Source of the DNA: Styela clava | Taxonomy: Eukaryota | Reading direction: 5' to 3' | DNA length: 64,000 bases | NCBI RefSeq assembly: GCF_964204865.1 | Contig: NC_135252.1 | Location: 14,074,001-14,138,000 of the forward strand | Shown here: positions 33,801-64,000 of the stretch, piece after piece | Layout of the letters: each line of letters starts with the position of its first letter | Position numbering within the stretch: the first letter of the stretch is position 1 | The notes under the pieces: generated by a model | The model's input: only the letters and a program-made list of their open reading frames with translations | The model's database searches: none | Told to the model about the DNA's origin: nothing | Made by a program: the position numbers and the translations under genes

Positions 33801-36800
33801 TTAATGTGAATACCTATTTGTGAACTACCAAACTGTGACAATATTTATTGAGCATAATGATTACGATACTCGAATTGAGAAACATTTACAGCATAAAAAT
33901 TGACTGAAATCTTTTGTTTCCCCCATATTATACAACCAAGGCTGGGTTGTAAAATACTCCGACTCCATTTCCAACCCGAAAGAAAAAATGTTGATAATGA
34001 AAGCTTCGGCATATGCAAGCCTTCTTCATAGACCGGTAAATTATTTTTTTTTAAGTTTTAGTATCAAGTTTTACCTTATCTCATCAACATTGAAAGTCTG
34101 CAATTCAGAGATATTCAGAATTTCGATTCTGAATTCGGGTTTGAAACTTTGCAAATTCGAATCCGACTCTGACTTCAGTGAAAATATGCTAGACACTCCT
34201 GTTAAGACTCCCGAATATATAGCTCTAGTACCAACTTATTAAGTTTTGCGAAAGGTATCATGACCAATAAATACACTATAGATTCTTCAATCGTGCTGAT
34301 TTCGCAATGATTTTTATTGAATCTATAACCGTATACTCAATCATACCATTGATTCTTTTATTATGGTTGACATCAACTGAACTTGAATCGAATTGTTTTC
34401 TGGCAGATGGCATTGGAACTCGCAATTGTTCTTTTGTAATAGGCTGTATTGTTTTGATGTTACTGATGATGTCAGTTAGCTTGTGAACTTTTAGATTTTC
34501 TTTTGATGTGGTAGAATCTTGAGAAAGGCTCATTTCTGTAAAAACAAAAAGATCACATTCTGAAATACTACTTTTTAATATAAAATATGTTCCAAAATGG
34601 ATCCTATTCAATAAGAAAATTTATATTGTATCATGTTATGATACATTCACGGAGATATGGCTGTAGTACAGAAAAGTTAAGACAGGCATTATTCTTATTG
34701 TTAGTTATGGTTGCCAAAGTTATACAAGTCTGGGCTTGGTTTAAACATATGACATCAGTTTGAATTGAATCACATAAATTATATGCAATATTATAAATTC
34801 TTCCGAAAATCAGTAATTTAATAAATTTTTAAAATGAAAATAAATTTCTTGTGAGAGTAATAAATCTAATTTCAAGTCTTGTCAGGTTTTCTCTGACTAT
34901 ATCATGATATGATTTTCAATATGTTTGGTTTGGATTGTCTGTTGAAAAAAGTTTGTGCTGACAAAGAAATCTAAGCTTGGAAAATCAAAGAAATTAAAAT
35001 AGAATTTGGCTATCTAACCTTGGAAAAATCATAAATTGCTGATACGCATGAACAAGAATCTTACAAATGGGGTGAAGGCTTCAAATATTGCATGATATAA
35101 CGACAATGCAACAAATAAAATACCAAAACAATGTCCGTCATTATTTTTTACCAATTACAATCCATGATAAGCTAGTTTTAATTCAAATATTATTTTAATT
35201 AAATCACCTCTTGAATTTAGTGATTCATCAGAATTTTTGCTAATTTCTGCCAAAGCTCCAAATTGTCCAGATGTTATCCCTTGATACATTGGTTCTGACA
35301 AAATATTATGTAAAAATTTGAGAAAACATCAAATACTACTCACACACATGTACACTTTTACAAGACAACCCTTAGCTTTATAATAACAACCATTTACTAA
35401 AGGTGTCTGTCAGTAATTCTTCAATGAAAATAATATTATTGTTCCATCTGATTTATCCACTCAGATATTTTCCAAGTTATAATATATTTCCTATAGAATC
35501 TTAATATGTTGATGTTGCAGATATTCGAATATTCATCATCTCACTCGAAGGATGGGGATATGCAATACCAAACCGAAAGGATTATGGTCATTTCCAACAT
35601 ACCGTAATAGCTTCTAACAAAGTCAGTGACTGATTGTACCAAGCCTTTTTCATAGAAAAAACACCTCATAAAAAGATATAAGCAAATTTGAGCAATACCA
35701 AAATAAAAATACAACACAAACAGCGAATAGTACCAATCAAGGTTTGAAAGTTAAGATGAAAGTTCATGTGAGAGTCACTCAACCTCACACATAGTTTAAT
35801 ATTAATTAAGTCCATGCTTCCGAAAACAAAAAATCCCATACGGGACATGGACTGGTAATCTGACGAGGGCCGTAGTTCGCCATATGATAAAGCCGTCGTA
35901 TAGACTTTCATTTTCCTCCCCGGGATAAATATGTAAATCCTATCCTCACCTTCGATATTTTTCACTTTTTGCTTTCGATTTAGTACATTTTTATTTGGAA
36001 TTACTTTGAATTGGTCAGAGGACACGGGACTCATTGCTCCTCCAATATTGTTAACTGAAAACCTAGAATGAAAAAATTACCTATTCTTATGAGCAAGCTA
36101 TTTATGCTGAGAAAATATCTTTACGACATATAATATTGCACAAAGTATCATCACCCGATATACCAAGTGCTGAGGTGTACCCTTTGAAACCATAAAATTT
36201 ATCATAATCAGTAATCAGTTTATTTTTTCGCATAGGCCTGCTGAAAATATACATTTCAAAGTGAAGGGAGATGCGATAAACTAGTACTAGTCATACTCAC
36301 TTCCAAACATGGAGTGCTCTGTATTTAGCTTTTACACCAGCAAAACTGGGTCCACTTTTAAGGGTATAACAAACCTAAATGAAGAATTAAAAAAATTTGG
36401 ATAAAAACAATGTTGAACTTGAGCCCATATAACACAACAAATATATTATGAAAAATAGTTTCAAGAAATTATTCTTAAAAAGAATGTGAGAGAAACATGA
36501 AACCATTTGAAAAATGCTGGACTTTCCAACTTCATAGATCATTTGATAATCAAAAAAAAGCCTATGAAACGTATCTGAATACTTATTAGGATTTTCATGT
36601 TCAGTATTGGAAGAGAAAAAGTGATAATACAATCTAATAACATGACGAACTACGACCTCTCGTCCGGTTACGAGTCAATGGAGATTTACAATAGATTTAC
36701 AATTATTTTATTCAGATATATGGACCTAATGGTTGAGGAAGCTGCAATCGACTAGCTGTTACATGAAGAAACACAATGTGGTGGAGTCCAGCAATCGCAC

Positions 36801-39800
36801 ATCATGCAGTGGTGTGCCAAACTTTTCCGCTGCCCGGGGCGAGAATATGATGCCCGGGGCGAGTTTCTGATAATGCTGCCCCTTATACCTTCAAAAATAT
36901 TTGGGGAGTAAACAAATTATAGATGTTGTTAATTGTTATACGTGAAAATAAATAAATTGAAGGTCGAGTAAGGGGTGAAATGTTTGTAATATTTTTATTC
37001 AAACCATCGAACTAAGCAACAAACTCACACCTATAACGTGCTGCCCAGGGCGGCTGACCTTTCAGCTCCCCTCTAGGCAGGCCACTGACCACAGGATTTG
37101 GACCTGTTATCCCCTTGCAAGGTAAACAAAAGTGCAATGACAAACGTGTTCCTAACGCTTATCACAATTTTCCTGCATACCTTTTCACCTATGCTCAATA
37201 CTTTTGTTAAGTCATTAGTAAGAGGTTCATTCATTCCAATCTGATATGCTTCAATATTGAAATACACATTTTCGGTAAATAAATCATTGTATCTATCTTT
37301 CTGAATAAATCCAAAATCTGGCCTCAAATTTTTGTGAACGTATCCAATATCTATGGAAAATAAGAAAGAATTTTTTTTAAACCCGAATAAAAAAAGATTT
37401 TCATATTATTAGAAGCCGTAAAAAACATACATACCGAGTTTCCCCGAAAATAAGACCTACCCTTTAAATAAGACCTAGTCAATAACGCGGAATTTTTTTT
37501 TGACCTGGTCGATAGCAAGAAATCTCTCCCATATGTTTTAAATGATTAATCTAAAACGTGTGAGATAGGAAAACGTGTCATTTAAGTAAATGGATATCGA
37601 ATTTCATATTTTGTATATTTGAAAATCTCGTAATTCTCTTCTTCGTAATTTTGTTTTTGATGAATAAAATATAAGAAATCCCCCGAAAATAAGCCCTAGT
37701 GTTATTTTTCGGAAGAATATTGGAATAAGACCCAGTCTTATTTTCAGGCAAACGCGGTAGCAATATCGAGTATAACAACAAAAAATTTGAATCATAGTTT
37801 ATTGTCATTGCAATAAATTGTTAGCTCGCAAAAGCAGAGAATCGTGTATTTACATAATGAAAAGGAAATTGATCAACAATGACTATTAGAGCATGAATGA
37901 TTAACAATATTTTAGAATGAAGTATAGTATATTTATGACTATGGAACTGCATACTTAGTTTAAAATAAATAAATCTAAGAAAAATTTGGAAATACAGGAA
38001 TGTTAAGATAAATACTTATTTAATCATTTGTCAATATTTTAAAGATTATCAGAACGTAAATAAAGACGAAAATAAAATTTTCCAAATAAGAACTACGATA
38101 TAACAATTTTTTCTTCATAGCGCAAATGTAAAATATTGAAATTATTTAATTATAAATTGATGTTCAAATCAATTTGATTTGTTTTAGACAACCCTGCATA
38201 TACCAATGCATACCATAACTAGATTTAGGTGATGGAGGTGGACTCGGAAACACCATCGCATTCGTTACAGTCTTAGCTGGTTGTTTGATAGGAGGATTCC
38301 TTTGAGTCACACTAGCCCAGCTGAAACAAGAATAAGATTTGTTACGAGTGCAATAAACTATATTTGCTAGATTGATGAAGATAATGCTCTAGATCTAATT
38401 GTATAACATTGTGGGCATAGGAAGAAAAACTAATATAAAAAATTTTGAAATTGTTTTAGAATTGAGGACATTCCAACTCAGACAAAATATTTTTCTGATT
38501 GGATTACAGTGGAGAAAAGTTTTGGTAAATAAGAGAGTTATATAAAATTGGTGAGATTTATAATAATAGCAATTACCAACATAAACATTTTACAACTTCA
38601 GTTTTATAGTTATTATTTTCATTTATTCAATTTAGAGAACGCATCCAAAAACAAGATATGAGTTTTGACAGATACTGCATTTCATTCATATTCTAAAGCT
38701 AATTCTGAAAATCAGATGTCTGAAATTATTGGACACTGGGTGTAGCTATTGTTCTTGTTGTCGTTCTGAAAAGTTCTTTTCCTTCAGTACTTGAAGTTGG
38801 CAGTAGTTGCCAGAAGGCTATTTATGCTTCTGCTTTTATAAAAAGAAACACTGGTTCGATATTTTATCCTAATGTTTAAACATATTACACCACTGCATGG
38901 CTTTCTAACTGCCATTCTTCGACTTCCTTGTTGTGAATAGCTTTGGTGGTGACAGCCAGAATTGAATCATAAGCATTTTAATGATCAGATAACAGATATC
39001 TGTGTAGGTAGGTCACACTAATGTAGTACGGTTAGTCATATGACGACCGTTTCCATATATTTGAGCATTGCTGTCCTATTGGACACGTAGTGGACATAAC
39101 AATCGTTTCAAAATTTTGTTGTTATTGTTATTTTCATTATTATTTGTCTCCATCATTTTTAAAAAAATCGCTTTTCTCTTCGAATACTGGACCAATTGCT
39201 TTGAAATTTTCAGTGGTTGAAGATAAAATTTTTCCCCAGAAGGCTATTACTTTTATTCATTTTAAATATTTCTGTTAGCTCTATGAGATTTGTTTTTGTT
39301 TGCTATGACGTCATTAAACGTTCTGCGGACATCGGACGCCATTTTGTGTCCTACTGTACTGCTTCACTTGGTGTGAGTATATTTGTAGACTGTGATCTGG
39401 CGGTACGGTAAACCGTACCCTACTGCGAACAGACGTGTCCATATATTTGGGTGTAGCTCTCTTGTTTCTAATCTAATACAGAAGATTGGAATATAAGTAT
39501 TTACCCTGATAAAGTAGATGTTGAAGATTGAGCAGGAAATTTAGATGCCAATGATGGAAATTCATTAAAAGATTCTTCTGGTATTTGTTTCACACTGTCA
39601 AAAAAGAGTTTTTAAATAATAGGATTCAAGTTTATTCCAAATTTCAGACAACTTTGAAGTCGGAAATTATATTATTTATTTATTCACTATGATTGCTTAT
39701 TTTATGACATGCCTAACAAGTTTTACAACTGATGTAAAATAAATCTGAAATTAATTCTATTTTAAATTTTTATGTAATTTTAGGAATAATTTATTTTGAA

Positions 39801-42800
39801 AATTATCATTTTTAGCGATTAACTAAAAATGGCTTCAGTTAATTTGAAAAAGAAAATCAGACCTCCTGAAGTATGCGCACCAAGATGACGAACAACCTGA
39901 ACTCAGGTTGTGTACCAGGTTAGGGTTCAGGTTATGCGACATTTTGGTGCGCAAACTTCAGGAGTACCAAAAAATCAATTGAGATCGCTCAGTAATTAAA
40001 GTGTTAGACTTGGCATCGAAGATTTAAAAACCTATACCCACCACCTCACCCAGGGTGTAATAATTAGGTAGGCGATGACGAAAAGTAAAAATTCGAACTC
40101 TAAAATTCTAATACATATCATTGGCTGCTCGTAAAGAGCCTCGTTTAGACCAAGCAATATTTAAAAAAACGAAATGTCATTTCACTTTTCTGTATTTTCA
40201 TATTCAAACTCATTGAAGATACAGAGACAGAAAATGATAAAATTTAGAATATATTAGATGCATTCAAAAATATTACTTCTGGGTTTTCCCATCCCCATAC
40301 TGAAAAAATCAAAAATCATACTTACACAGAAGCATCTGCTAAATTATCTTCATATTCTACATCATCATCATCAATTTTTTCTACCTCAAGAGCTCTCCAT
40401 TTGGACTTAATATTTGGATTAGTAACTGGCATTGCATAAGCACTAACCCTGTAAACAATTAATTTGAATAAAGGTAAAGAATACAGGTACTTCAATCTGA
40501 ATCGCTACTGCTAATTTTGGTTGATCTTTCTGTAATTCACGACACAATTATGTAGGTAAATATGTATTAACCAAATACAAGGAGAAACAATGACAACTAA
40601 ACATCTTATTCGACCTAGGGAAAAGCATAGATACCATGTTCGGGTGGCTGTAATCTTTGCAACAGATGGAAGGAGCATAAATTCAAATCCTTGGGTAAAA
40701 AACGCTCTGCCGTTTATATAATATTTTACCATAAAAAAAACAATGATTGTCAAGACTAGAGGAATAAGTCAGTTTTCAGATGCCTCAGTTGCAAGTCTAG
40801 ATGAAATATTGACTATGCATGATTACCTATCGAAATTTTTAAAATGCTTTCTTATATCATCATTAGGTTCGAGACCACAAGCTTCCAAATCGAAGAAAAC
40901 ATTTTCTTCAAATCTCGAAGGTTTGTCATCTCTTTCTATAAATGAGTATTCCTTCTCTATACGTCGAGCTATAAATCCTGAAATGTGAATTGAGTAGAAA
41001 AGTTGAGTAGAAAAGCTTTTAATTTTACAATGCTGTGCTTCTGAGGTCTCACCTAATACTTTCAAGCTATATGAGCAACAAAGTAGACATACTGGTATGG
41101 GTGTACTGAAGTTAAAAAAAACAGATTTCAGCGAAACGAATCTAATTTTAATACCCAAAATGAGGTAATGGACACATGACATGTTTATCACATAATAAGC
41201 CGCGGATCAAACTTGGAGAGTATTATTTGCCTGCTGAGATTATTTAACTTTCTCCAACTGTACATCATGACGCAATTTTCCAAAGCACAGTACAATAATT
41301 TCCCAAATAGATTATAACAAAAAGAAAAGTTTGTGAAGCACTGACCTAACTCATGTACAAATCAATATTCATCCATAACATTTCTTATCCATGAGAATTC
41401 ATTGAAATAACAAACAAATGAAGTCTTGAAATTTAGCTGCGCTCATTATCAAAAGATTAAGACTCAAATAATGCTCACCAAAGATGAAAAACTTGATTGT
41501 AATTGCTTTTTCAAAATGAATTCTCAGGACTTTCAAAAATGATTTAACATTTTGTGATTTAACATTCTAGAAAGTTACCTGTAATATGTATTCCACCAGC
41601 AGGATCAGGTTCAACTTTTAATATCTTTTTTTGTTTATCTATAAAATTTACAAATTATTCATATTAATTCATTAAACATACATATTAAGCTAAGTGCTGG
41701 AAGCATGATCATTATAGCTTTACAAATTAAGATATGATTAAAATAGAATTTATCATTGGTGGAAGAATGGTAAGGTGACGTATGGAAATGGATTTTGACT
41801 GATTAATCAGTAAAAAGTTTTATATTGCTCTCGAGATATCTTTGAGTCATTTTTAGAAAATGATTGTTGAATTCACTCATGTAACAACTAACTGCTAATA
41901 CATTTATAGAGTGCATTGAAAATGGTGTTATGGATAGTTACCACCAAAACAATGTTCAAATATATGAATTTAAAGGTCAAAGGCTTAAAATCGGTGATTT
42001 CTCATTCAACCACTGAATTTATTCACATGCCTACCAGCCAGGCCTCAGCTGACCACTAAGTTTGCTGAGAAGAGTGAAAGAATAATCTGGCAGAATGCCA
42101 AATAGATGTGCAATATAAGACAAACCGGTAATTTTTGGTGTGATATTTTAGGCCCTATCAGACCAGAAGAAAATTTGAGAGTGAGACTAAATGGAAGTAT
42201 AAGGCACCTAGTAATTTTCGTTGTAATCTTCTAGTACTTAAAGTTTTATATTATTTGGTCCATTACTTGTACAATTTATTCACAACAACGAACACCTCAA
42301 CAGGTACAACAACGATGAATATGTGCTTAGCTGGATATGCCTGTAATAAGAAAAGTAAAATGAACTTCACCCTTTTTTCTTTCATACATAAATGGAACAC
42401 TAATTCTTTGCTCTGCTTTCTTTTCCAATTTACTTTTCTGTCCACTATGCTTCTGCAAATTATGACCCTGACAATATAAAGAAAACATAATAACATAGAA
42501 ACGCTTTTAAACTACTGTAATAAACTAATTTAGCAAAATAGGAAATTACCTGTAAATCTATTTCATCTCTATAGACAGGAATGCGATCTGATTCCATGCA
42601 TTCAGGATGTTCACATGGAAAATGATTTTCACGCTGATGTTCAAAAAGTGAGTTCTTGTCTCTAAATAAAAATATTGAGCATTAGCAGGAAAGTTGATGC
42701 CATCCTCGCTAGAAGCAGATCTCGCATATAAGCCAACCTCTTGAAAAAGGCTCTAAAACGGTAAATTTATACAAATTTGCATATGTGACATGTGTGTGAC

Positions 42801-45800
42801 AACCAATCACAGACTGTTATCACTGTCGTAGCATACAGAGTGCTGCTTCGATCTTATCATGATTCGAGTTGAATCTGTTTAAATTACCGGCAAGTTACAT
42901 AGTATAATGTCATTTCGTTTGAGTGTGATCAAAGTTATGCGTGTATAAGCCTAGCATTTTATAGAAGCCTAAATAAAAGACATAACATTGCGTAATCATG
43001 TGAAACTAGAGTATCATTGACTTCTGTACACAACACAAGGGGTTTCCTAACCGAGTATATTGTATCTACAGATGTGGAACTATTCTTTCACCTGTATTAT
43101 AATAATTTAAACAATGAAATACGCTAGACATAATGTCATGCCTGAACTATCATAAAATGTGAGAGTGTGTTCAGAAGCATAAAATTGAGCTGATAATAAA
43201 TAGAGCATACAAAAAGCAGAACACAATTAAGTATGTGTGGAACAACACACCTTCAAAAGTAAATAATATCTAATATAATGACAGGCAGCCTATACTGACA
43301 TAAATGTATTACAGGAATGGTTGAATGATATATATTGCTATTCGAGGTTACTTTCACTTTAGGCATATTTACGTATAGAATGACACTAAACATGGATAAA
43401 CTCCTTTTAATAAATATTTGCATCATAGAAAATCAATTATGAAAGCTTTTGCTGTAACATCAAGACAAATCATTTTCACAAATCTCTAAAAAATTGAATA
43501 TGTATAATTTAAAATTATTTTTTAGTTAAGTGAACATGCACCACTTCTTAAAAGTCTTTTTATTTAAACTTTGTTTGTTTTTAACCTTACTTTTGTTTGC
43601 TTTCCTGGTTCTATAATCTGTTTTTATTTGTTTTATTTCTATCAAATATTTTATCACCTATGCTGATTACGGAGTCGAAATGAACTTATATTTATTTGTA
43701 GACAACTGAGAACACACTTTTAAGACCTTGCCTTAAAAAGTCCAGTATTATATTCAGGACATGCATTTTTATAATAGAAAATCTATACAGTGTTGACTTA
43801 CGCATAAAACTCATAATTCTTATGTTCTTCATTAACTTCATCACATATAATACAGGAACAATGATGAAGTCGAAGATGACGTAATAATTCATCATTATCC
43901 AAATAACGATAATCACAAAATCTAAAACGAAAGACATATAGTTTATAGATTTTACCATAGTTTTTTAGCTGTCCAGATACATAACAGCTTCAGGAAGCAT
44001 ACTCACAAGTGACACCATTTACATCTATATAGTGTTGCATTGGAGGGAATTTAGCATATTTGACTCATAAATTTGTGGTGAAAAATTTTTTTGGCTCTGA
44101 GAGATCAAAAATACAACTCTGACTCCAATATAAACATGCCGACACTACAGCCTAATAATTACATTTTACTGGAATAAAAACAGGATATACATGCTTACCT
44201 ACACAATGGATGGCCACCCCTTGCTGACCCAGTTTCATCACCATCTTCAATATGTTTCTTTAATTCCGACTTGGAATATGTTTTTCGCTCTTCAGTAAAT
44301 ATCTGAAAACGAATGTAAAAATCTGCTTTTTTCCTATAGTTTCTCAACGTCAAAACATTTTGTATAGCTCATTTCCTTGTTTGGTACCCAGATTCATTAT
44401 GGTACTTAATGGGAGAGCTATAAAACGAATTTATCCAATATCTTAAAATAAATTATGCAAACAATTCTAGTAATTTCAAAAAATCAGCTTCTTCCATTTT
44501 CAATGGCTGCTTTTGCAGAGCCTCGTACAGGGTGAAAGTCATATCAAAGAAATTATGTTTGAATAAAAATGCATTTTAGTAAGAAAAAACTTTTAAAATC
44601 AATATCACTCGCCGTTTCATTTGCTAATTAAAAAAAAACACTTTAACATACCTTACATTGTCTTACACATATTTCACAATAATACAGTTGATGTTTATCA
44701 CGAGCATGAGCTTCTAATCCAGGAAAATTATCGAAAATGGCATTCGGACATTTATTGCAGACATGTCGCAAAAGAGCACTGTAGATTATAACAGAATATA
44801 AATAGCATAGGAAAATATAATTCGGTTAATTTAGCAATGTTTCGTAGGCACTGAATAGTTTCAAAGAAAATGTGCTACTGCTGCATATTATGGTATATAC
44901 AGACCTGACTGTTTGAAAAAAGACAAACAAGAATACCGGAAATTATAAACCAAATAAATTAACATTCAAGTATGCTTATTCCTATAATTATTGTCACATG
45001 TAAGATGTAACCTCTGTTATACAGTCTAAAGCAGGGATGGACAAACTACGGCCAAACAAAGCATTTTGCGTAGCACCCTGTTCTTGGGAGAAATTAGTGA
45101 AGATTTCTTAGAACTACATACAAAATTTAATTTTATTGCTTTGCTTCATCTTCAATTTAACAATACCATAGCGAGAGTCACAGTCAATTTTTCAATGCGA
45201 GTCTTTGCAAAAAAAAAAAGATTTTCAAATAATTCAAACCTCTTTTGTTCACAGACTTTGATGTTTTCAAATGCAATCCCATATTTTTTATCCTTGATAT
45301 AATCGTCAACCTTATGCTCATTTAATGGAAGCAAATTCTTAGAAAATACAACCTAAAAAAATTTTTTTGAGAGAAACTTTGATAGGACAGAAAAACATTG
45401 ATCTAAATAGTCGAGAATTCTGTAACAATATATTATAGTATCAGATTCATTCAGAAATGGCCAAAACTTAATCATTTTCCCTAACATACACAATGAGTAA
45501 AATCTAAACAGATCATTTTAACAGAGAAATTTGAAGAAACAAAATTGGGTGCTCCCGAAGTATGCGAATCAAGATGGCGGACATCGGAACGTAACATGGA
45601 TAACAAGTTAGGGTTAGGCGATAATTTTTTTCCAATTTTCCTCATTTTAGTTCTATTATCAGTTGGAAGACTAGCCAAGAGCCTCCCGTAGTATTTAAAG
45701 CTAAAATTATGGCCTAACCTTAACCTAGTACACATATTACATTCCGATGTCCGCCATCTTGGTTCGCATACTTCGGGAGCCCCCAAAATTGAATTTGAAA

Positions 45801-50537: not shown

Positions 50538-50955
50538 TAGGGTTACCATATTTTTGTGACTTCAGAGTGGGAGCTTATAAATACAACGACCCCTTAGCTG
50601 TGATTTTGTAACTTTACATTTTCCGATTTTACTACATAGGCCTACATTTAAAGCTATCCCGGCTGTCTTCATTGACCATATTGTCATCGAGATTTAATGC
50701 GCATATTCTCTGTCCAAATATCAGGTTCAGTTCGAAAAATGGCAAGGAATTGTCGTTAACGATACCGGTACAAATAATTCGAATTTAGACTAATTAGTAT
50801 TGGTTTTACATGCGATGCGTTTTCTAACAATGTTAGCGAGAAACAACGAAACAAACGCATTTACCTACCCAAAGCGGGACTTTTGGCTGACATGGCGGGA
50901 CAAGACGCTAAAAAGCAGGAATGTCTCGCCTAAATCGGGACGTATGGTAAGCCTA
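50538..50955. mobile_element. hAT (Blackjack/MER81-like) MITE
   Basis: TIR tagggttaccata / tatggtaagccta; cgggac subterminal repeats; 8-bp TSD ggtataaa / cgtataaa. A left-truncated duplicate lies at 59984-60301. Confidence 0.8.
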
Positions 50956-53900
50956 CGTATAAATATAGTGCAATCAGGCAGCTAACTATCGCATTAGTAA
51001 AGTAGTCTTACTCTTCATTATGAAGCAAATTTTCTGTTTGGGAGGGGCGTGTCCTACGGTAAGTCCATACCAGTATTGCAGCTCAGCAATTCCATCGGAT
51101 TCCATAAGTCTTTGTATTCAATGTAGAAAAATTTACATGCAAATGGTTAGAAGCAAAGGTTGCAAGGACAGGATATTGATAGGCCTATGTGTTCGACTGC
51201 AAATCGAAATTAACCGTGTTTCAATGTTTTATAAAAAAAATCATTATTTGTGTGTCATGCTGTAATTGCCTCATCGTTTTTGATAAGACCCTGAGTTGGT
51301 ATAGTTATATTTAAAAGCAGAATATCCAATCAAATGGACGTTTTGGATGCATGAGCATGCCTGATTGGTAGAAATGACGACTGTTGGATTTTAAAAAAAA
51401 TCATCGTGTTACGAATATTGGAAAAACAATCGTGCTAATCGTAGGATTACCTAACATAACTTTATTTTGGATAAGCGTTTTAGTCTTTAGGTAATTTATA
51501 AAACAGGTTTCTGTTACAATTATAGCCATTTATTGGAGGAATCTCAAAATCAAACGATAACGAATTGGACAGTAATGTTTCTATTTACGCAACTTTGTTT
51601 GAAATCTTTCATACATCCGCATATTTCGTATTAATCTGAAACGTACACTGTGATTGATGAGCTTTACTTCGAGGCTTTGGGTCAGATTGCCTCATTTTTC
51701 TATTCTGCAAGGTGTTGTTGTAGAATCTTCTTCCTTCACACTGCATTGTTCAAATACTTAGTATCGTTTTCTAGCCGCCATTACATTGCACACGATCCAC
51801 AGCACAATTAAACAATTTGAAGCAACTGGGTTTCTTCAATGGTACGAGCCACAGCAAATGCAATGTAACAATGTTGAATAAGAGATGAAAGCTAATATTT
51901 TGGCATCATCATGGGAGTTCTCTGAAGACTTGAATGGACTTGTTTAAAACACAGTTAGGCTAATCGACGCGATTTTAACAATCGCATTGGATTTGAAATT
52001 TTTCCTATTGACACGATTAACGATTAGAAACCATTAATTACAGATATGAAGACTTCGCTGAATGAATGCGGCGCGGAGAAATGGGCATTAACAGAGAACC
52101 GTTAAAAATAATAAGTATGAAGCAAGTAACGTTTTATACTCCTTTTTTAAAAAAAAATGTTTATTTGATTATGAGCAGATACATGCGACAAAACATAACA
52201 GTTCGAGCTCATTATTTATTTTTTACTGAACGCCGGAGTTTCCGATACCATTAAATGTTAATTTGAATTTTGGTATAGCGAAAGTTTACAATTTATCTAT
52301 TATATAAACTATTTGGATTTTATGTTTAGCAATTTTGGTCATATGAACATGAGCGTTTCGCAAAACAGAAAGAACAGAAAAATTTGAGGTGAAATATCGC
52401 GCCAAGTATAAAATTAAAAAATATAATCATGACAATACCCTTCCAGTGACTTCGCCTATCTTGGAGTAATGAATATTTGAAATTGATCTCCTCGAATGCC
52501 TGTGTTAGCCTACTATTACTATGTACAAAATGCGCTTTTTATTCATCTTGTCATTCAGAAAAGGATGAGACTTTTTTTTATATATATTTAAACGGATTTT
52601 AATTGTTATTGCAAATGCACATCCAAAAGTTTAATTCCGAGTTAATAATTTTGTTATCGCACTATGATGCTACATCTCTGTGACCTTTCTATGATTTTGT
52701 TTACGCCCTAGTGATCAGTATTGTACTTGATCAAAGTATAGTATAATATGTATACATTTTAACACATGCCCTCTAAGTCTAAACTATACAATAAATCTGA
52801 TTTAAAGTGTCGAATAGGGGGAATTTTTTTTTATATTTATCAGCCGACTCATTTTTGTCTTTATTTTATAATTTCATATCGTAATAATCCATACTGACAG
52901 TTTGATCACAGCGTAAATAAAATGGTCAGGATCTGTATTTCTGCACTGTATTTCTATAAAAATTTGTACTATTGCCCTTTTTTAACATTGTTTTATTTAA
53001 ATAAAATCTCCCTCTCTCTCTCTCTCTCTCTCTAGTCCTACGGCGCATTTATAAATAGAGAGATCGGACTTTAGCTTGCGCCATAGAAAAAGATCTGGAG
53101 CCTCAGATAGATTATACGTTACTAACTGCACCAGTTAAACACAAAACTCAATTCCCTTGTCATGTAAATTGTAAACCATTAATGGTTCTAGAATGAAATA
53201 AATCCTGTTAATTTTATAGTTCGGCCGTTGGCACAGTTGATCATCATACCGTAAATATATACTACTACGATGATACACGTTTGGCACGATTCAAATGAAT
53301 ATATTTCTCTGGTAAATTTAACGAAATGATTATATTTAGTCAATATATATATTTTAAACTTCGGCTGATGTCGCTAATTGTTAGGGGATTTGTTTAAAAT
53401 TTAGAAAATGGATGAAATCGTGTGCTGTGCATTGAACTAGAACAACGAACATTAAATGAGGTCCGTACTTGGTATGAAAATCCTCATTTCACGCTATTCC
53501 AAAACTTCGTGTGCGTCAAGTTCATATCAAATATTTGAACTAAATTGCCTTCGAGACAAGTCCATGCTTAATGGCATCTTACTTTGACACGTATAAGTCT
53601 TTTTCCAAGATTGTTATATCCTGAAATGTATGAGGTAGCCGACACATAACTTGCAAAAAAATCCGGACGATGTCACCACAACTATAAGGAAACATAAAAT
53701 CAAACCACGAGAAGCTAACAACAAACGTAATAATATGCTGAAATTCAAATACATATCTTACTTTTTAGCACTTTTTAAATAAAAATGTTATTACATTTTA
53801 TTATTTAAGTTATACATTGACAATTCTCATTCTTCGACGAGAATACTTGAAAAAAAAATATACTTCATGACGACAAATACAAATGTGATAAATTTTAGTT

Positions 53901-54513
53901 TTATGCTTCTCGTTTACGACGAGGCTTTCTACAATGCCAGTTTCTCGCTTTGGAAATTTTTTAAGCTTAGTATCAACTTTCAGGAATCATGCAATAAATG
54001 TTTTAGCTGTTTTAATCTGATAATCAATCTTCAGATGATAGTTGTACGGGCGTGGAAATTTATCAACATAGACAATTGGTTTTACTAATCGTGCAGTCGT
54101 CGCGAATGATTCAGAATTTCTACGATTTGAACAAAGTTTGTTTTATTTCAACTGAAATGTCTTGTTTAAAAAATTTTGCAATGGTAGTGTAACATATTCG
54201 TAGGAACAATCTATGTTTGAAATTTTGTATCAATATAGATGTCTAATATTTTCTCGTGGGCATGAAAGTAAACATAGGAATAGGCTTAACACAATAATAA
54301 AGAAAGTGATCAAAAAAAGATTTATATTTTAATCGTGTTTTTTTTTCATAATTATATTTTTATCCGTAATTGCTGAATTTAAGACACCAAAAATAAATCT
54401 GCCTAAATTTTTAATTGATCATTTTACGTCAAACCTTGACGTCCTGAACGTCTATTGTTAACATTGCGTCTCATGCAGTAAGCTTTAGGAACAACAACTT
54501 GTTGATATTTCAT
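50646..54513 (+). repeat. Segmental duplication, copy 1
   Basis: Colinear and near-identical to 59984-64000, from atttaaagctatcccggctgtc to ..caacttgttgatatttcat, with scattered substitutions and a few indels. Confidence 0.95.
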
Positions 54514-55824
54514 GGTTTAATCGCGTTTTGTATATTTTGTTTACCACTCGCTTTATATATTGTTTATACGCACTCTGTATTTTTGTATTTAGATTGTCCG
54601 TGAAACGTGACGATTTGGTCACACCTGTCATTCATCTGATAGATTCATCTGTGACATATCAGATAAAGGGTTTATCCTCGCTGTAACGTTTATAATATAC
54701 TCTCTTAAGTATCAGAGTTATTAGAGGCTGAGCCGTAGTACGAGAATTTATTACTTCAACCAAATCAGTCCGAAATGTTTTCATTAAATAAACAAAGGAT
54801 TATAGAAACGATTTAATTTTAATTACATTGAAAACGATATGATAATCAAACAGTTGTTTAGACAAAGATTCACAACTTTACTTCTTTCATTAATACTCTT
54901 CGAATATTAAAAATTCAAAACAGGGAGGGTTTTGTATTTTCTTTTTTAGAATGCCTGATTTTTATAAGATCGCTTTTCAGTGGCGTTATTTTTTTTATTG
55001 TATACCCTCTTGTAATTTTGGGAAACTGAAAACCGTCCAGGGCCACGCTCGGGGATTAATGATGGGCTATTACTAATCAACGAGAGTAGTGGACACTATA
55101 TGATTGGATGTTGATTTGAATGCAACCATTCACATATATGCTTGAAAACACAGAACGCTAACCGTTTTAATATTTGGACACTCTATTCGAATGTCCAAAA
55201 TAAAGACAGAACCTGAAAATTTATATTTGTATAAAAATATATATAGAAAAAATGAATAATATTTTGTCCACTCTAGACTGGTGGTGCTGTTTGTAACAAA
55301 TTAAATTCATTACTGTCAGAGAATACTTTTTATATAAGGTCTCGTAACGACTAAACAAGAATAGAATCCGTCGGATTTTAACATGGTTTGCAAAGCATCA
55401 ACACACATTACCGGCACTGATCCACACATGATGAGAGAACAGCACTGCTATGACCCTTAAATACCACACCATCGAACAAACAAAATTGTGAATTGAGGCA
55501 TAGATACAGTTTATAACCATGTTGCAATATAAAATTATTTCACACAAGTATAGAAATATTGCATGGAAACGAAATGACAAACGGAAATATTTGTAAATCT
55601 TAGATACAGTATACGCAATATATGCTAGCACGTATTAAAAAAATTGTCACAATTGTCAAAAAAGTTCTTGTGGTGTTTTTGGATGTTAGAAAAAGTGTAG
55701 AATAACAATTTGTTATATATTAGATAAAATAACCGTCGTCATGCAATTAAATAACGTATCGTCCTATTTTCTATGCACCAAGAACGTTGTATATTTTCCC
55801 GAGAGTGAACACCGCTTTCAGTCA

Positions 55825-56240
55825 CTATTCAAAATCAAAGAACGGATCTTCATCTGTTAAATTAAAAATTTGTTTTTGTAATTTATATATATTTCCAATG
55901 CAATGTAATGATGATTTGATTCAAATGCTTCGCTGATATAAGTTGAATAAATCGGGCAGCAAAGAACTTAATATTGCGGTCTTACCTAATATAATTGATC
56001 CTTTCCTTCGTACGTCCGTGGGCCACCACGATGGAGGCGCTGAGTCTATTCTGAAAGTGAATTATAAAATTGTACATAATAATTTAAAATTTTCTTTACA
56101 TTCCACTATCTTGAACTAACTTTCAATTTTACTAACCTTGAACTCCGGCCTTTTTCAGGCTCTGAGGCTGAGATTAGGACGATACTAGATATCAAACAAA
56201 ACAATAGAAAAATTGCTTTAACTAATCCCGCAATCATCAT
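55825..56240 (-). CDS. Small secreted prepropeptide A (65 aa), family not recognised
   Basis: Exons 56240-56137, 56050-55986, 55853-55825 (GT-AG, intron phases 2 and 1) give MMIAGLVKAIFLLFCLISSIVLISA SEPEKGRSSR IDSAPPSWWPTDV RRKG SIILDEDPFFDFE*. Splice sites and frame are conserved with paralog B, and length differences are multiples of 3. Confidence 0.85.
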
Positions 56241-56340
56241 GAAAAAATTAGAATTTTTAAGATTCAAATGATTATTCTAAATACTTCTGTCGTGAGTGTT
56301 GGCGCCGAGAATATGATTCAATTTTATGTACGATTTGCTG

Positions 56341-56346
56341 TTTATA
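56341..56346 (-). promoter_or_regulatory. Candidate TATA box of prepropeptide gene A
   Basis: TATAAA on the minus strand about 100 bp upstream of the ATG; also present at the homologous position in gene B (58486-58491). The AT-rich background weakens the call. Confidence 0.4.
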
Positions 56347-56735
56347 GAAAATCGCATCCCCGTCATATGGTTCGCCACCAGTCTCCGACGGAAAAAAAAT
56401 CTAAATTTGCTGATGTTGTATTTTTATAATGAACCGCATTGATAAGTTATATTTATATTGTGTTTGATTCAATGTCATTAAGCTGGGAGGATTTAAACCA
56501 CACCTACTGTAGAAAATGCACAAGCTTCACAGAATTTTCAAGGTAACTTCTGATGGCACGAAGCGTCTAATAAGACCATTTGCATGGTTTAAATATAGAA
56601 ATGTTTCAAACTGAAGAATTAAGTCCCATGTCACATTGCCGAATTGAAGTGCAGTAGAAACTGGTTTCATATTAAGAAACTGTTAACAATTCAGACGTTA
56701 CTCATAATTCCAAATGTATTACCTAATAACTGTCT

Positions 56736-57028
56736 TGTTAGGTACACCACCAGAACGTGTACCCTCAAAAACTGGTACCTAAACGCCGTTCCCGAATGGC
56801 TTTTCCAGTATGACTGTACCCAGCCTGCTGTCACTGTGCCAAGGTGATATTCCCTTTGGTCGTTGCTATGCTGTTTGCTGCCCATGGTTACCCCTCTCGT
56901 ACTTGACGGTGCCCAGAGTCTCTTTTCTGTAACAAATTTGGTTTTTGGACTTGATATTTGATATATTAATTTATATATTGTTCGTCTTATTTCTATTAAA
57001 CTTGTATCAAAGTTAGACTCCTATCACA
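56736..57028 (+). mobile_element. Possible solo LTR upstream of prepropeptide gene A
   Basis: TG..CA ends (tgttagg / cctatcaca), GC-richer body, ATTAAA about 30 bp before the 3' end, located in the segment absent from unit B; no convincing TSD. Confidence 0.35.
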
Positions 57029-57940
57029 GGTATCGCTGATCAATAACCAACTTTGGTTTTTCGCGTCACCTTTCACCATGAAATGTCATTTTCAACTTTT
57101 TTTATGTTCACTGTGAGTGCATTTTCATTTTGGTGAAAAATAAACTACTGACTGACTATTTTCCTTTTTAAACTAAAAATAAACATTTAACGTCATCAAT
57201 TACACGATGATTAAGAGATAAATACGCCAAGGCAAATATTTAAAACAGAAAGATTCTATATTTGAGTACATGAGCATAAAACAATCTAAACATAATTTAC
57301 TTGAACTAAATCTATGTAAAACTAAATTGATGTTCAAATTTCCAGGATAAACACAGACTCAGAAAATTTACATTAGTACAAGGAAAATGAATAATATTTT
57401 GCCCACTCTAGGATGGTGGCGCTGTATGTGACAAATTAATTCATTGTTGTCAGAGTGTATTTATTATATAAAGACTCGCAACGGACAAACGATAACAAAA
57501 TCAGTCAAAATTTAACATGGATTGCAAAGCATCAATACACATTACCGACACTGATCTACGCATCATGCGAGAACAGCACTCTCATGAGCACAAATATCAT
57601 ACCCACAAAGAAAACAAATTGTGCGTCGAGATATAGGTTTAATTTATAAATGCAAAATTATTTCGCACAAATGTAGAAATAATATACAAAAACGAAACGG
57701 CAAATATTTGTAGATCTTAAATACACTATATAAGCATTATGAGCTAACATTTTCAGTTCGTCAAAAAAGTTGTCACAACTGTCAGAAAGTTCTTGTGGGG
57801 TTTCTGGATGTTATAAATAGTGTAAATTTGTTTATATCAGATAAAATAATCGTTGTCATAAAATTAAATATCGTATTGTCATATTTTTCATGTAGCAAGA
57901 ACGTTGTATATTTTCCGGGAGTGAACAGCGATTTCAGTCA

Positions 57941-58360
57941 CTATTCAAAATCGAAGAACGGATCTTCATCTGTAAAATTAAGGAAAGTTGTTTTTGCAAT
58001 ATATATATATAAATATAAGGCCATATAATGATTATTGGATTCAAATGCTTGACTGATTCAAGTTAAATAAAGCCGGCAGCAATAAACCTAATATTACCTA
58101 ATATAATTGATCTTTTTCTTCGTCCCCACGATGAGTTCGGTGGAGACGTTGAGTCCACTCTAAATGTGAATTATACATATTAAATACATATACGTTATTT
58201 TACATTATAATTTGAAAATTTTCTTTACATTGCGCTATCTTAAACTAAGTTTTAAGTTTACTAACCTTGACTCGCGGGGCCCATAGGCTGAGATCAACAC
58301 GATGGTAGATAGCAAGCAAAATAATAGAAATATTACTTTAACTAATCTCGCAATCATCAT
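57941..58360 (-). CDS. Small secreted prepropeptide B (61 aa), paralog of A, with predicted Trp-amide core
   Basis: Exons 58360-58266, 58159-58098, 57969-57941 give MMIARLVKVIFLLFCLLSTIVLISA YGPRESR VDSTSPPNSSW G RRKR SIILDEDPFFDFE*. G-RRKR is an amidation Gly followed by a furin consensus site. Confidence 0.85.
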
Positions 58361-59983
58361 GAAAAAATCAGATTTTTCCGGATTCAAATGAATATTCCAC
58401 TGAAACCTGAAACACTTTTGTCAAATCCTTTTTCCGTGAATGTTGACAACGAGAATATGATTCAATATTACGTACGATTTTTCGTTTTATAAAAAAATTC
58501 TCTCCGTCGGATGGTTCGGTACCAGTCTCCAAAAAAAAAAAAACTAAATTTGCTGATGCTGTATTTATATAATAATCCACAATAGATAAGATATATTTCA
58601 ATTGTGTATTCATTCAATGTCATTAGGCAGGGAGAAATTGTATTCAAACCACACCTACTGTAGAAAATGCACAATTTTCACAGTCATTTCAAGGTAACGT
58701 GTGATGGCACGAAGCGTCCAATAAGAACATTTGCATGGTTTAAATATAAAAATGTTTCAAAACTAAAAATTTATTGTTTTTTAAATTAAACATAAACATT
58801 TAACGTCACTAATTACAATATAATTAAGAGATGTAGACGTCAGAACAAATATTGAAAACAGGAAGATTTGAGTGCATGAGCTAAAACAATCAAAATATAA
58901 ATGGGAAATTATATCAGGCACTCATTGTCTAACATAAATGTGAAAACAAACAAATCCGTCAACGCAAAACTAATAAAAAATTAGTCAGTATTTTTGTCAC
59001 AGACTCTCATTACTTCGTTGTTTACATAACAATGATTTAAAGTAAACAACTTACTTATTATTGGACACGAAATGGACCTATGGATCGTTTTATTATTAGA
59101 CTGTTGTTCTTGTTGATATTTTCCTTCTTGTTGTGATCGTATGAAAAAATTCCCGATATCATATAATGCTAATCTAAATTTTGGTATATATATATATATA
59201 TAGTACAACCCATCTATTATATAAACTATTCAGGTTTTCTGTTTACCATTTTTGGTCGTACTTTGGACATTAATGTAAATGAACATGAGGGTTTCGTAAA
59301 ACTTATCATCATTCTGATTTAAATTGGCTGTAAACATGGGCACGAAAGTCAAATGACTATGATACAACGCAATGTAAACAAATTTCAACTGAATTTTAAT
59401 TGAATTGTCTCTATTTTCATATGAAGGTATGTCTAAGAATTAAAAAAGGCAAACTTTGGGGTGAAATAACTCACAGGAAATTGATAAAAAAATCAAGGTA
59501 TCTGTACTCACTATAACTAATACAACTAATATATGCAAAATCATCTTTTTGTCCATCTTGTCATTTTAAAAAAGATGAGTCTTGATTCCGAGTTGATAAT
59601 TTTGCTATCGCACCACAATGCTACATCTCTGTGACCTTTCTATAATGTAGACACATTGTTAAGCCCGAGTCCTACGGCGCATTTATAAATAGAAATATAT
59701 ATATAACTTTAGCTTGCGCCCTAGAAATAGATCTGAAGTCACAAATAGATTATAAGTTACTAACTATAGCAGTATAACTACCAGTTCAAAACACAACTCA
59801 ATTTCCATGTCATATAAATCATTATGGGGTTTAGAATGAAATGAATCTAAAAATGAAAATGAATGCGATGTACTAACATTTTCAATTGAAAAGTGCTGGA
59901 AAGTATGATATAATTTGAAGTTCAGCATATTCTTACGGTGGTGTTAGCTTTTCGTGGTTTGATTTTATGTTTATTTATTGTTT

Positions 59984-62900: not shown

Positions 62901-64000
62901 AGACGAGTTCATGGTTATTTGCATTTTACTTTGACTCGTATAAGTCTTTTTCCCAGATTATTATATCCCAAAATGTATGCGGTAGCCGACACATAACTTG
63001 CAAAAAAATCGGACGATGTCACCACAACTATAAGGAAACATAAAATCAAACCACGAGAAGCTAACAACAAACGTAATAATATGCTGAAATTCAAATACAT
63101 AACTTACTTTTTAGCACTTTTCAAATAAAAATGTTAGTACATCGCATTCACTTTCATTTTAGGAGATTAACATGGTGATAAGATAATTGTGGAAGCCGTT
63201 CGGATAAATGTCGCGATATAAATTTGATAAACAGGTCATATCTTTTTTACGTTGTCCAAAACACAACACCAGCTCTTCTCATATTTAAGTTATACATTGA
63301 CAATTCTCATTCTTCGACAAGAATACTTGAAAAAATATACCTCATGACAACGAATAAAAATGTAATAACTTTTAGTTTTATGTTTCTCGTTTACGAAGAG
63401 GCTTTCTACAATGCCAGTTTTTCGCTTTGTAAATTTTTTAAGGTTGGTATCAACTTTCAGAAGTCATGCGATAAATGTTTCAGCTGTTTTAATCTGATAA
63501 TCAATCTTCAGATGATAGTTGTACGGGCATGAAATAAAACAACACAGACAATTGGTTTTACTAATCGTGCAGTCGTCGCGAATGATTCAGAATTTCTACG
63601 ATTTGAACAAAGTTTGTTTTATTTCAACTGAAATGTCTTGTTTAAACACTTTTGCAATGGTAGTGTAACATATTCGTAAGAACAATCTATTTTGACACCA
63701 TGTTTGAAATTTTGTATTAATATAGATGTCTAATATTCTCTCGTGGGCATGAAAGTAAACATAGGAATAGGCTTAACACAATAATAAAGAAAGTGATCGA
63801 AAAAAGATTCATATTTTTATCGTGTTTTTTTTTCATAATTATATTTTTATCAGTAATTGCTGAATTTAAGACACCAAAAATAAATCTGCCTAAATTTTTA
63901 ATTGATCATTTTACGTCAAACCTTGACGTCCTGAACGTCTATTGTTAACATTGCGTCTCATGCAGTAAGCTTTAGGAACAACAACTTGTTGATATTTCAT
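59984..64000 (+). repeat. Segmental duplication, copy 2 (runs off the window end)
   Basis: Matches 50646-54513. It begins inside the Blackjack-like MITE and has extra segments at about 62277-62340 and 63140-63280. Confidence 0.95.

What the first reader, a model, noticed from the sequence alone, without database searches (positions are those of the whole stretch)
55986..58159. Divergence is concentrated in the core peptide, and the two paralogs are predicted to be processed differently
Seen: the 13-aa tail is identical in both genes (one synonymous TTT/TTC change), and the signal peptide differs at only 4 of 25 positions. The segment between signal peptide and RRK is rewritten with in-frame indels but keeps R-(I/V)DS, PP and SW. 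B has W-G-RRKR (amidation plus furin consensus); A has V-RRKG (no amide donor, R-X-K-R consensus lost). Inference, two testable alternatives: the variable core is the active product and the constant tail is a follower or sorting sequence, as in conotoxin-like and RiPP-like precursors; or SIILDEDPFFDFE is the conserved active peptide and the core is a free spacer.
Basis: partly seen in the sequence, partly recalled or inferred. Interest (0 to 1): 0.7.

Follow-up and report, generated by a model that had tools for sequence, protein, structure and literature searches.

The report
Sea-squirt Pro/Trp peptide precursor family

Summary
The described residues are all present. The genes are two of seven intact three-exon copies in a tandem array of the ascidian Styela clava; an eighth, distant member lies on another contig. 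RNA-like contigs from two studies splice gene B exactly as modelled.

Two corrections. (1) The Val before RRK is private to this A copy: 6 of 7 array copies have Gly. Only RRKG is shared by all three A copies. (2) Excess divergence is confined to the 7-12 residues after the signal peptide. The exon-2 part of the core changes no faster than introns and keeps (I/V)D-x-T-P-P...W(W) in the distant member, so it is not a free spacer.

The tail is under purifying selection. Styelin genes in this genome show the same variable-core, constant-acidic-tail pattern, which favours core as product and tail as follower (0.55). Tail as hormone remains open (0.25). The core is not cationic, so this is not a styelin-type antibiotic. 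No relatives outside the species were found. The scan noted similar-looking families elsewhere in this genome, but not this one. No peptide has been detected.

The parts
56137..56240 (-). Gene A1 coding exon 1: 25-residue signal-like peptide (56240-56166) plus 10-residue N-terminal core segment ending S-R; phase-2 intron inside the Arg codon
   Evidence: hydropathy peak 2.98; signal cleavage placed by eye
55986..56050 (-). Gene A1 exon 2: Pro/Trp core part, private Val codon (56013-56011), RRKG site (56010-55999), first four tail residues
   Evidence: no RNA contig cover in 4 runs
55825..55853 (-). Gene A1 exon 3 coding part: acidic-aromatic end of the tail and stop; phase-1 intron before it
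58266..58360 (-). Gene B1 coding exon 1: signal-like peptide (58360-58286) plus 7-residue fast-changing segment (58285-58266)
   Evidence: splice joint 58159/58266 in X1, X4, X5
58098..58159 (-). Gene B1 exon 2: core part ending W-G (Gly codon 58125-58123), RRKR site (58122-58111), first four tail residues
57941..57969 (-). Gene B1 exon 3 coding part (end of tail, stop)
57131..57940 (-). Likely 3' untranslated region of B1, as far as one spliced contig reaches
   Evidence: record 6 of run X1 covers 57131-57969, 58098-58159 and 58266-58532
50646..59983 (.). First of three roughly 9.5-kb tandem units, each holding one A and one B gene; units 2 and 3 and a seventh gene (C) lie beyond the window at G000:C3:14139.4-14160.4 kb
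53814..53972 (+). Decayed exon-1 relic resembling the distant family member on contig C13 (frameshifted, donor lost; no exon 2 or 3 found)
   Evidence: 68% over 171 nt to L076
63352..63493 (+). Second copy of the same exon-1 relic
   Evidence: 71% over 147 nt to L076

Best explanation
Each gene encodes a 61-69-residue precursor with a signal-like start, a Pro/Trp-rich core, a multibasic site and a conserved 13-residue acidic tail, and the likely product is the core, predicted to be released by convertase cutting at the basic site. Inferred steps: (1) entry into the secretory pathway and signal removal; (2) a furin- or PC-type cut at R-x-(K/R)-R / S-I in B, C and the C13 gene, or at the remaining RR or RK pair in A; (3) trimming of basic residues and amidation where Gly precedes the site (6 of 8 genes); (4) the tail acts as a follower for sorting or enzyme docking, as proposed for the acidic pro-regions of styelin and clavanin. 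The released 18-27-residue core, or its 11-20-residue exon-2 part if the S-R bond is also cut, has a side-chain charge of 0 to -2 in the seven array copies. It would therefore act by binding a receptor or other protein through its (I/V)D-x-T-P-P...W(W) motif, as a lineage-specific signalling or defence effector, not by lysing membranes.
For: Shown: seven intact array copies and one distant gene share three exons and intron phases 2 and 1. B is spliced as modelled in 3 of 4 runs laid, from 2 studies. The tail has 0 non-synonymous changes at about 32 sites in A1-B1, A1-C and B1-C, against 17-26% intron divergence (p=0.006, 0.002, 0.0003). Its two halves flank an intron that has diverged 19-25%, which argues for selection over one conversion tract. 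The exon-2 motif and a basic site followed by S-I are kept in the C13 gene. Gly before the site is in 6 of 7 array copies. Internal control: styelin-family genes have cores 15-22 of 32 identical and acidic tails 17-21 of 21 identical, and their first intron is also phase 2 in a basic codon inside the mature peptide. Literature passages: ascidian antimicrobial precursors are signal + active region + anionic C-terminal pro-region that is removed and is relatively conserved in Ci-MAM (PMC7387483); convertases cut after (K/R)-Xn-(K/R), n = 0, 2, 4 or 6 (PMC8310232).
Against: No peptide was detected; every processing step is predicted. The tail is the most conserved part, and in many prohormones the most conserved C-terminal piece is the ligand (own knowledge). 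With a non-cationic core the usual reason for an acidic pro-piece, neutralising charge, does not apply. Styelin's second intron is phase 0, not 1, and styelins and clavanins are cut before Asp, not at basic sites (PMC7387483), so homology to them is not shown. The amide donor is missing in A1 and the C13 gene, and the core's C-terminal end varies in length, so an amidated end is not essential. Tissue of expression is unknown.
Confidence: 0.55

Rival explanations
1. The 13-residue acidic tail is the hormone-like product, released by the furin-type cut, and the core is a pro-region with some constraint (signal - pro - basic site - terminal peptide layout, recalled from apelin-type precursors).
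For: The tail shows the strongest purifying selection and keeps 9 of 13 residues in the distant gene, 3-4 of them with a different codon. R-x-(K/R)-R / S-I is in 5 of 8 genes. The Gly donor is dispensable (2 of 8 lack it). Ascidians have lineage-specific short peptides with their own receptors (PMC6475428, passages).
Against: A copies (3 of 8) changed the last Arg to Gly, which would alter the tail's N-terminus, yet kept the tail. The core keeps its own motif over the same distance (8 identical residues between C and the C13 gene in the exon-2 part). In the same genome a constant acidic tail follows a variable active core in styelin-family genes. Tandem expansion with diverging cores but identical tails makes more sense if the cores matter.
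Confidence: 0.25
2. Both released pieces are functional, for example a variable core with a defence or recognition role plus a constant co-released tail signal.
For: Both pieces are conserved in the distant paralog; a single cut releases both.
Against: No direct evidence; needs two activities.
Confidence: 0.1
3. The precursor is not cut in vivo; the 36-45-residue pro-form is secreted whole, with the basic patch and acidic tail as binding surfaces (for example a substrate-like protease binder or a tunic component).
For: The Gly donor is missing in 2 of 8 genes and the P1 Arg in 3 of 8.
Against: G-RRKR followed by S-I is a standard cleavage-plus-amidation signal and is the likely ancestral state in the array; a basic pair is kept in 8 of 8.
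Confidence: 0.1

Closest known systems
Styelin and clavanin precursors (Styela clava); Ciona linear cationic antimicrobial peptide precursors (Ci-MAM, Ci-PAP)
   Same: Signal + variable core + more conserved acidic C-terminal piece; Gly amide donor; small multi-exon genes in clusters; styelin's first intron is also phase 2 in a basic codon.
   Different: Core is Pro/Trp-rich with charge 0 to -2, against +5 to +9 for the three styelin-family cores. The cut is predicted at a multibasic site, not before Asp. Second intron phase differs. No Pfam styelin match at this locus.
Lineage-specific ascidian neuropeptide precursors (Ci-NTLP, Ci-LF, Ci-YFV/L)
   Same: Short secreted precursors whose peptides have no homologues outside ascidians (PMC6475428, passages).
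   Different: No sequence link shown. Their sequences are in a supplement that I did not read, so a faint likeness is not excluded. Here there is one core per precursor and one gene per variant.
Sponge proline-rich macrocyclic peptide precursors (animal RiPPs)
   Same: Signal peptide, conserved recognition sequence, variable Pro-rich core, introns (PMC10945851, passages).
   Different: Those carry up to 25 repeated cores that end in Pro and are cyclised; here a single core ends at a Gly/basic site.
Public model P0122 ('uncharacterized protein', Styela clava, 129 aa)
   Same: Its last 61 residues equal copy B1/B2.
   Different: It adds 68 upstream residues from a separate signal-like exon and the 5' region; likely a chimeric model. 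No public protein for A, C or the C13 gene turned up.

Membership tests
Ascidian linear cationic antimicrobial peptide precursors | Signal peptide, then core, then C-terminal anionic region | tested here: met
   Hydropathy peak 2.5-3.0 in 8 of 8; tail charge -5 in 7 of 7 array copies; no signal-peptide predictor was available
Ascidian linear cationic antimicrobial peptide precursors | Cationic amphipathic core (net +3 to +10 in the screen of PMC7387483) | tested here: not met
   Core charge 0 to -2 in 7 of 7 array copies, Pro-rich
Ascidian linear cationic antimicrobial peptide precursors | Pro-region removed before Asp, without a basic processing motif | tested here: not met
   A multibasic site separates core and tail in 8 of 8
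Styelin (Pfam PF17562) | Profile match | tested here: not met
   All 9 matches in the genome lie on contig C10; none for P0122
Ascidian linear cationic antimicrobial peptide precursors | Haemocyte expression and antimicrobial activity | not testable with these tools
   Library descriptions not on record
Prohormone / neuropeptide precursor | Signal peptide plus convertase site (K/R)-Xn-(K/R) | tested here: met
   8 of 8; full R-x-(K/R)-R in 5 of 8 (motif from PMC8310232)
Prohormone / neuropeptide precursor | Invariant Gly amide donor with a conserved C-terminal motif | tested here: inconclusive
   Gly in 6 of 8; residues before it vary
Prohormone / neuropeptide precursor | Homology to a known peptide family | tested here: not met
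   No Pfam family over cut-off; 0 PDB matches; Atlas hits all under 0.9
Prohormone / neuropeptide precursor | Neural or endocrine expression and a receptor | not testable with these tools
   none
Animal RiPP (sponge macrocyclic peptide type) | Repeated recognition sequence-core units, core ending in Pro | tested here: not met
   Single core ending at Gly/basic site against PMC10945851
Animal RiPP (sponge macrocyclic peptide type) | Tail acts as enzyme recognition sequence; core is modified | not testable with these tools
   needs biochemistry
Disulfide-rich conotoxin precursors (features recalled) | Cys framework in the mature peptide | tested here: not met
   0-2 Cys per precursor, all within the signal-like part

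The most novel reading that the evidence does not exclude
The acidic-aromatic tail is a portable docking tag that brings processing or modifying enzymes (for example the Trp-brominating chemistry known from styelin D) to a Pro/Trp core. That would make this an animal RiPP-like family with a C-terminal follower, in which the A clade has switched from a furin-type to a dibasic cut and the N-terminal segment is under diversifying selection against a changing target.
Probability: 0.12. Interest if true: 0.75.

Novelty: new variant of a known kind. Interest (0 to 1): 0.4.

Why it matters
It adds an undescribed, expressed, poorly annotated peptide family to the sister group of vertebrates. It uses the core-plus-acidic-tail layout of ascidian defence peptides but with a non-cationic core and a convertase site. 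That makes it a clean test of what acidic tails do when there is no charge to neutralise, with eight natural variants, including amide-donor and cleavage-site changes, for comparison. Until a peptide or activity is shown it is a modest orphan-gene finding, and the headline contrast between A and B shrinks to one private substitution plus one site change.

Tried and rejected
Homologue searches. Word-index search with B1's exon-1 frame gave no candidate; with an alignment of 4 exon-2 frames, 0 of 57 candidates scored. HMMER over 1.84 billion representatives gave 1 hit, the species' own model P0122. All three used unspliced exon frames, so short distant relatives could be missed. Pfam: nothing over cut-off for 16 + 2 queries. 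PDB: 0. Atlas: best score 0.83; prohormone-like clusters at 0.76-0.79 are leads only.

Papers. 0 hold the last-exon motif and 0 hold P0122's gene identifier. Five topical searches listed no paper whose title or abstract start describes this family. The library lacks most subscription papers.

Expression. No holder is on record as RNA. A exons had no cover in X1, X4, X5, X6. No spliced C contig was listed in X1, X2, X5, and that output was cut. Neither is evidence of silence.

More members. The C10 hit is chance. The C3, C4 and C6 hits are one repeated element (1 of 11 inspected); the C2 and C16 hits showed no gene. Of 55 other S-R-type donor sites, 1 had a signal-like exon, with no matching later exon in 12 kb. 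120 kb around the C13 gene held no further last exon.

Rejected ideas. A second cut at an upstream R-x-x-R as a family rule: present in 6 of 8, absent in B3 and the C13 gene, and the S-R may be fixed by the splice donor. Retention of intron 2 as an alternative C-terminus: the frame is open in A and C but shifted in B, with no RNA support. A separate gene at 59556: no acceptor gave a convincing product in all three copies, and the matching stretch on C13 has no such frame. A local template for B3's changed block: none within 2 mismatches apart from one distant match. The tail as a product of gene conversion: the intron that splits it is diverged.

Full report
Gene models. Both genes are on the minus strand. 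A1 has coding exons 56240-56137, 56050-55986 and 55853-55825 (65 aa); B1 has 58360-58266, 58159-58098 and 57969-57941 (61 aa). Introns are GT..AG, phase 2 inside an Arg codon and phase 1 inside an Asp codon. Contigs of runs X1 and X4 (study P1) and X5 (study P2) skip exactly B1's two introns; X6 does not cover them. None of the 4 runs covers A's exons, which is no evidence either way. The runs are only guessed to be RNA, but the joints show spliced molecules. An STT3B exon in the window matches a Styela protein at 100%, and the one profile hit among 1.84 billion representatives is a Styela clava model containing B, so the host is this ascidian.

The family. DNA and pattern searches give seven copies, all in one array: three roughly 9.5-kb units with one A and one B each, then a single gene C. 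All seven have open frames of 61-69 codons; A2 lost its first ATG but keeps the second. The units differ by a few percent, so the exact copy number could partly reflect assembly of haplotypes; I could not test that. An earlier scan note on another cluster (e1-8585449) prompted a looser last-exon search, which found an eighth gene on contig C13. It has the same exons and phases, and its introns give no alignment to C's longer than 15 nt. I could not locate that note's cluster, so a link to it is untested. Decayed plus-strand exon-1 relics of the C13 type sit at 53814-53972 and 63352-63493. Of 55 further sites with the same donor motif, 1 had a signal-like exon, without matching later exons.

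Where the divergence is. For A1 against B1, introns differ at 36 of 210 aligned bases; upstream and downstream flanks differ at 0.14-0.31. The signal peptide differs at 11 of 75 bases, mostly silently (pN 0.07, pS 0.39). The tail has no replacement at about 32 sites in A1-B1, A1-C and B1-C (Fisher p=0.006, 0.002, 0.0003 against introns, 31 sites used). The exon-2 part of the core is not faster than introns in any of three pairs (p=0.60, 0.40, 0.42); A2-C gives pN 0.135 and pS 0.43, but A1-B1 gives pN 0.28 and pS 0.07 on only 9 codons, so the codon counts are too small to show selection by themselves. The exon-1 part is faster: 11 of 20 for A1-B1 (p=0.0004) and 9 of 20 for B1-B3 against 13 of 231 (p=5e-6). 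Caveats: gap positions were set by hand, indels inflate the A-B count, the far flank (0.31) would weaken it, and the B1-B3 difference is one 15-base block that may be a single event. Diversifying selection is therefore suggested, not shown. The C13 gene keeps S-R, (I/V)D-x-T-P-P, W-W, a basic site, S-I and 9 of 13 tail residues, so both the exon-2 core and the tail are constrained.

Processing. The codon before RRK is GGA in 6 of 7 array copies and GTA only in A1. A1 differs from A2 at 3 of 69 core bases, all replacements, about the intron rate (8 of 218), so the Val may be drift or decay. RRKG is shared by the three A copies, which form a clade, and is likely derived; a basic pair still fits the general convertase motif (PMC8310232, passages). 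So A2 and A3 are predicted to give amidated cores like B and C, possibly through a different convertase, while A1 and the C13 gene would not be amidated. An upstream R-x-x-R is in 6 of 8 genes; that convertases dislike an aliphatic residue just after the cut is recalled, and my search did not return a passage for it. In styelin-family genes the equivalent phase-2 junction lies inside the mature peptide. With note e1-8585450, which reached the same doubt for another cluster, this moved me from 'exon 2 alone is the peptide' to an even split with 'the whole core is the peptide'.

Which piece is the product. The internal control is the three styelin-family genes on contig C10: cores are identical at 17, 15 and 22 of 32 positions, acidic tails at 17, 17 and 21 of 21. 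Ascidian antimicrobial precursors are described as signal, active region and removable anionic pro-region (PMC7387483, passages); styelins and clavanins are amidated haemocyte peptides and styelin D carries bromo-Trp (PMC10608444, passages). A constant acidic tail behind a variable product is thus normal in this animal. I put core-as-product at 0.55. The core's charge is 0 to -2 against +5 to +9 for those styelin-family cores, so lysis is unlikely and receptor or protein binding is the likelier action; Ciona has lineage-specific peptides with their own receptors (PMC6475428, passages; its supplement with the sequences was not read). Tail-as-ligand gets 0.25 because the tail is the most conserved piece; both pieces active 0.1; no cutting 0.1. 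All steps after splicing are inferred.

Comparison and novelty. It works like an ascidian core-plus-acidic-tail precursor with prohormone-type cutting. It is not a member of the cationic antimicrobial class (core charge and cleavage rule not met), of styelins, of sponge macrocyclic peptide precursors (PMC10945851, passages) or of Cys-framework conotoxins. Passages of PMC9966394 added nothing decisive. No relative outside the species was found, with the limit that queries were exon frames or the chimeric model. No paper in the library holds the last-exon motif or the gene identifier. The scan has no note near this window or on this sequence but has notes on similarly built families elsewhere in the genome; these are unchecked leads, not support.

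Verdict. A real, undescribed orphan family.

Noticed in passing
G000:C13:4097746-4098427 (+), locus L076: Eighth, distant family member: 68 aa, same exon layout, R-H-R-R / S-I site, no Gly donor; no public protein for it turned up.
   Followed up: yes
window 59512-59556 (-); copies at G000:C3:14143136 and 14152709: A 15-codon signal-like exon that the public model P0122 joins to copy B2; likely a chimeric annotation.
   Followed up: partly
window 58271-58285 against copy B3 (L009:5435-5449): 9 of 15 bases differ without an indel while the rest of the genes differs by 1-9%; one X4 contig of depth 4.2 shows a further amino-acid variant in the same block.
   Followed up: partly
L008:3818-3820 (copy A2): First ATG changed to ATA; the second ATG is intact.
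   Followed up: no
G000:C4:18661075-18661166 (-), L127: Signal-like exon ending S-R with the same donor sequence, followed at once by what looks like a transposon end; no matching exon 2 or 3 within 12 kb.
   Followed up: partly
G000:C3:16167736-16167918 (+), L051: Signal peptide followed by a very Arg/Lys-rich stretch: looks like an unrelated cationic antimicrobial peptide gene.
   Followed up: no
window 23616-24653 (+): Exons of STT3B (oligosaccharyltransferase); one is 100% identical over 98% of 47 residues to the Styela protein P0003.
   Followed up: yes
window 33150-41206 (-): Several long open frames that look like exons of an unidentified gene; no Pfam match over cut-off for the 4 tested.
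   Followed up: no
window 56626-56840 and 56930-57160: Repeated elements between A1 and B1, matched by many unrelated contigs; B's transcript contig ends inside one.
   Followed up: no
window 11997-12791 and 45540-45791: A roughly 105-bp tandem repeat, and an 89-bp inverted repeat with 74 bp between the arms.
   Followed up: no
G000:C3:14180.6-14193.0 kb: A separate 5-6-kb tandem duplication, 98% identical, 20 kb beyond the array.
   Followed up: no
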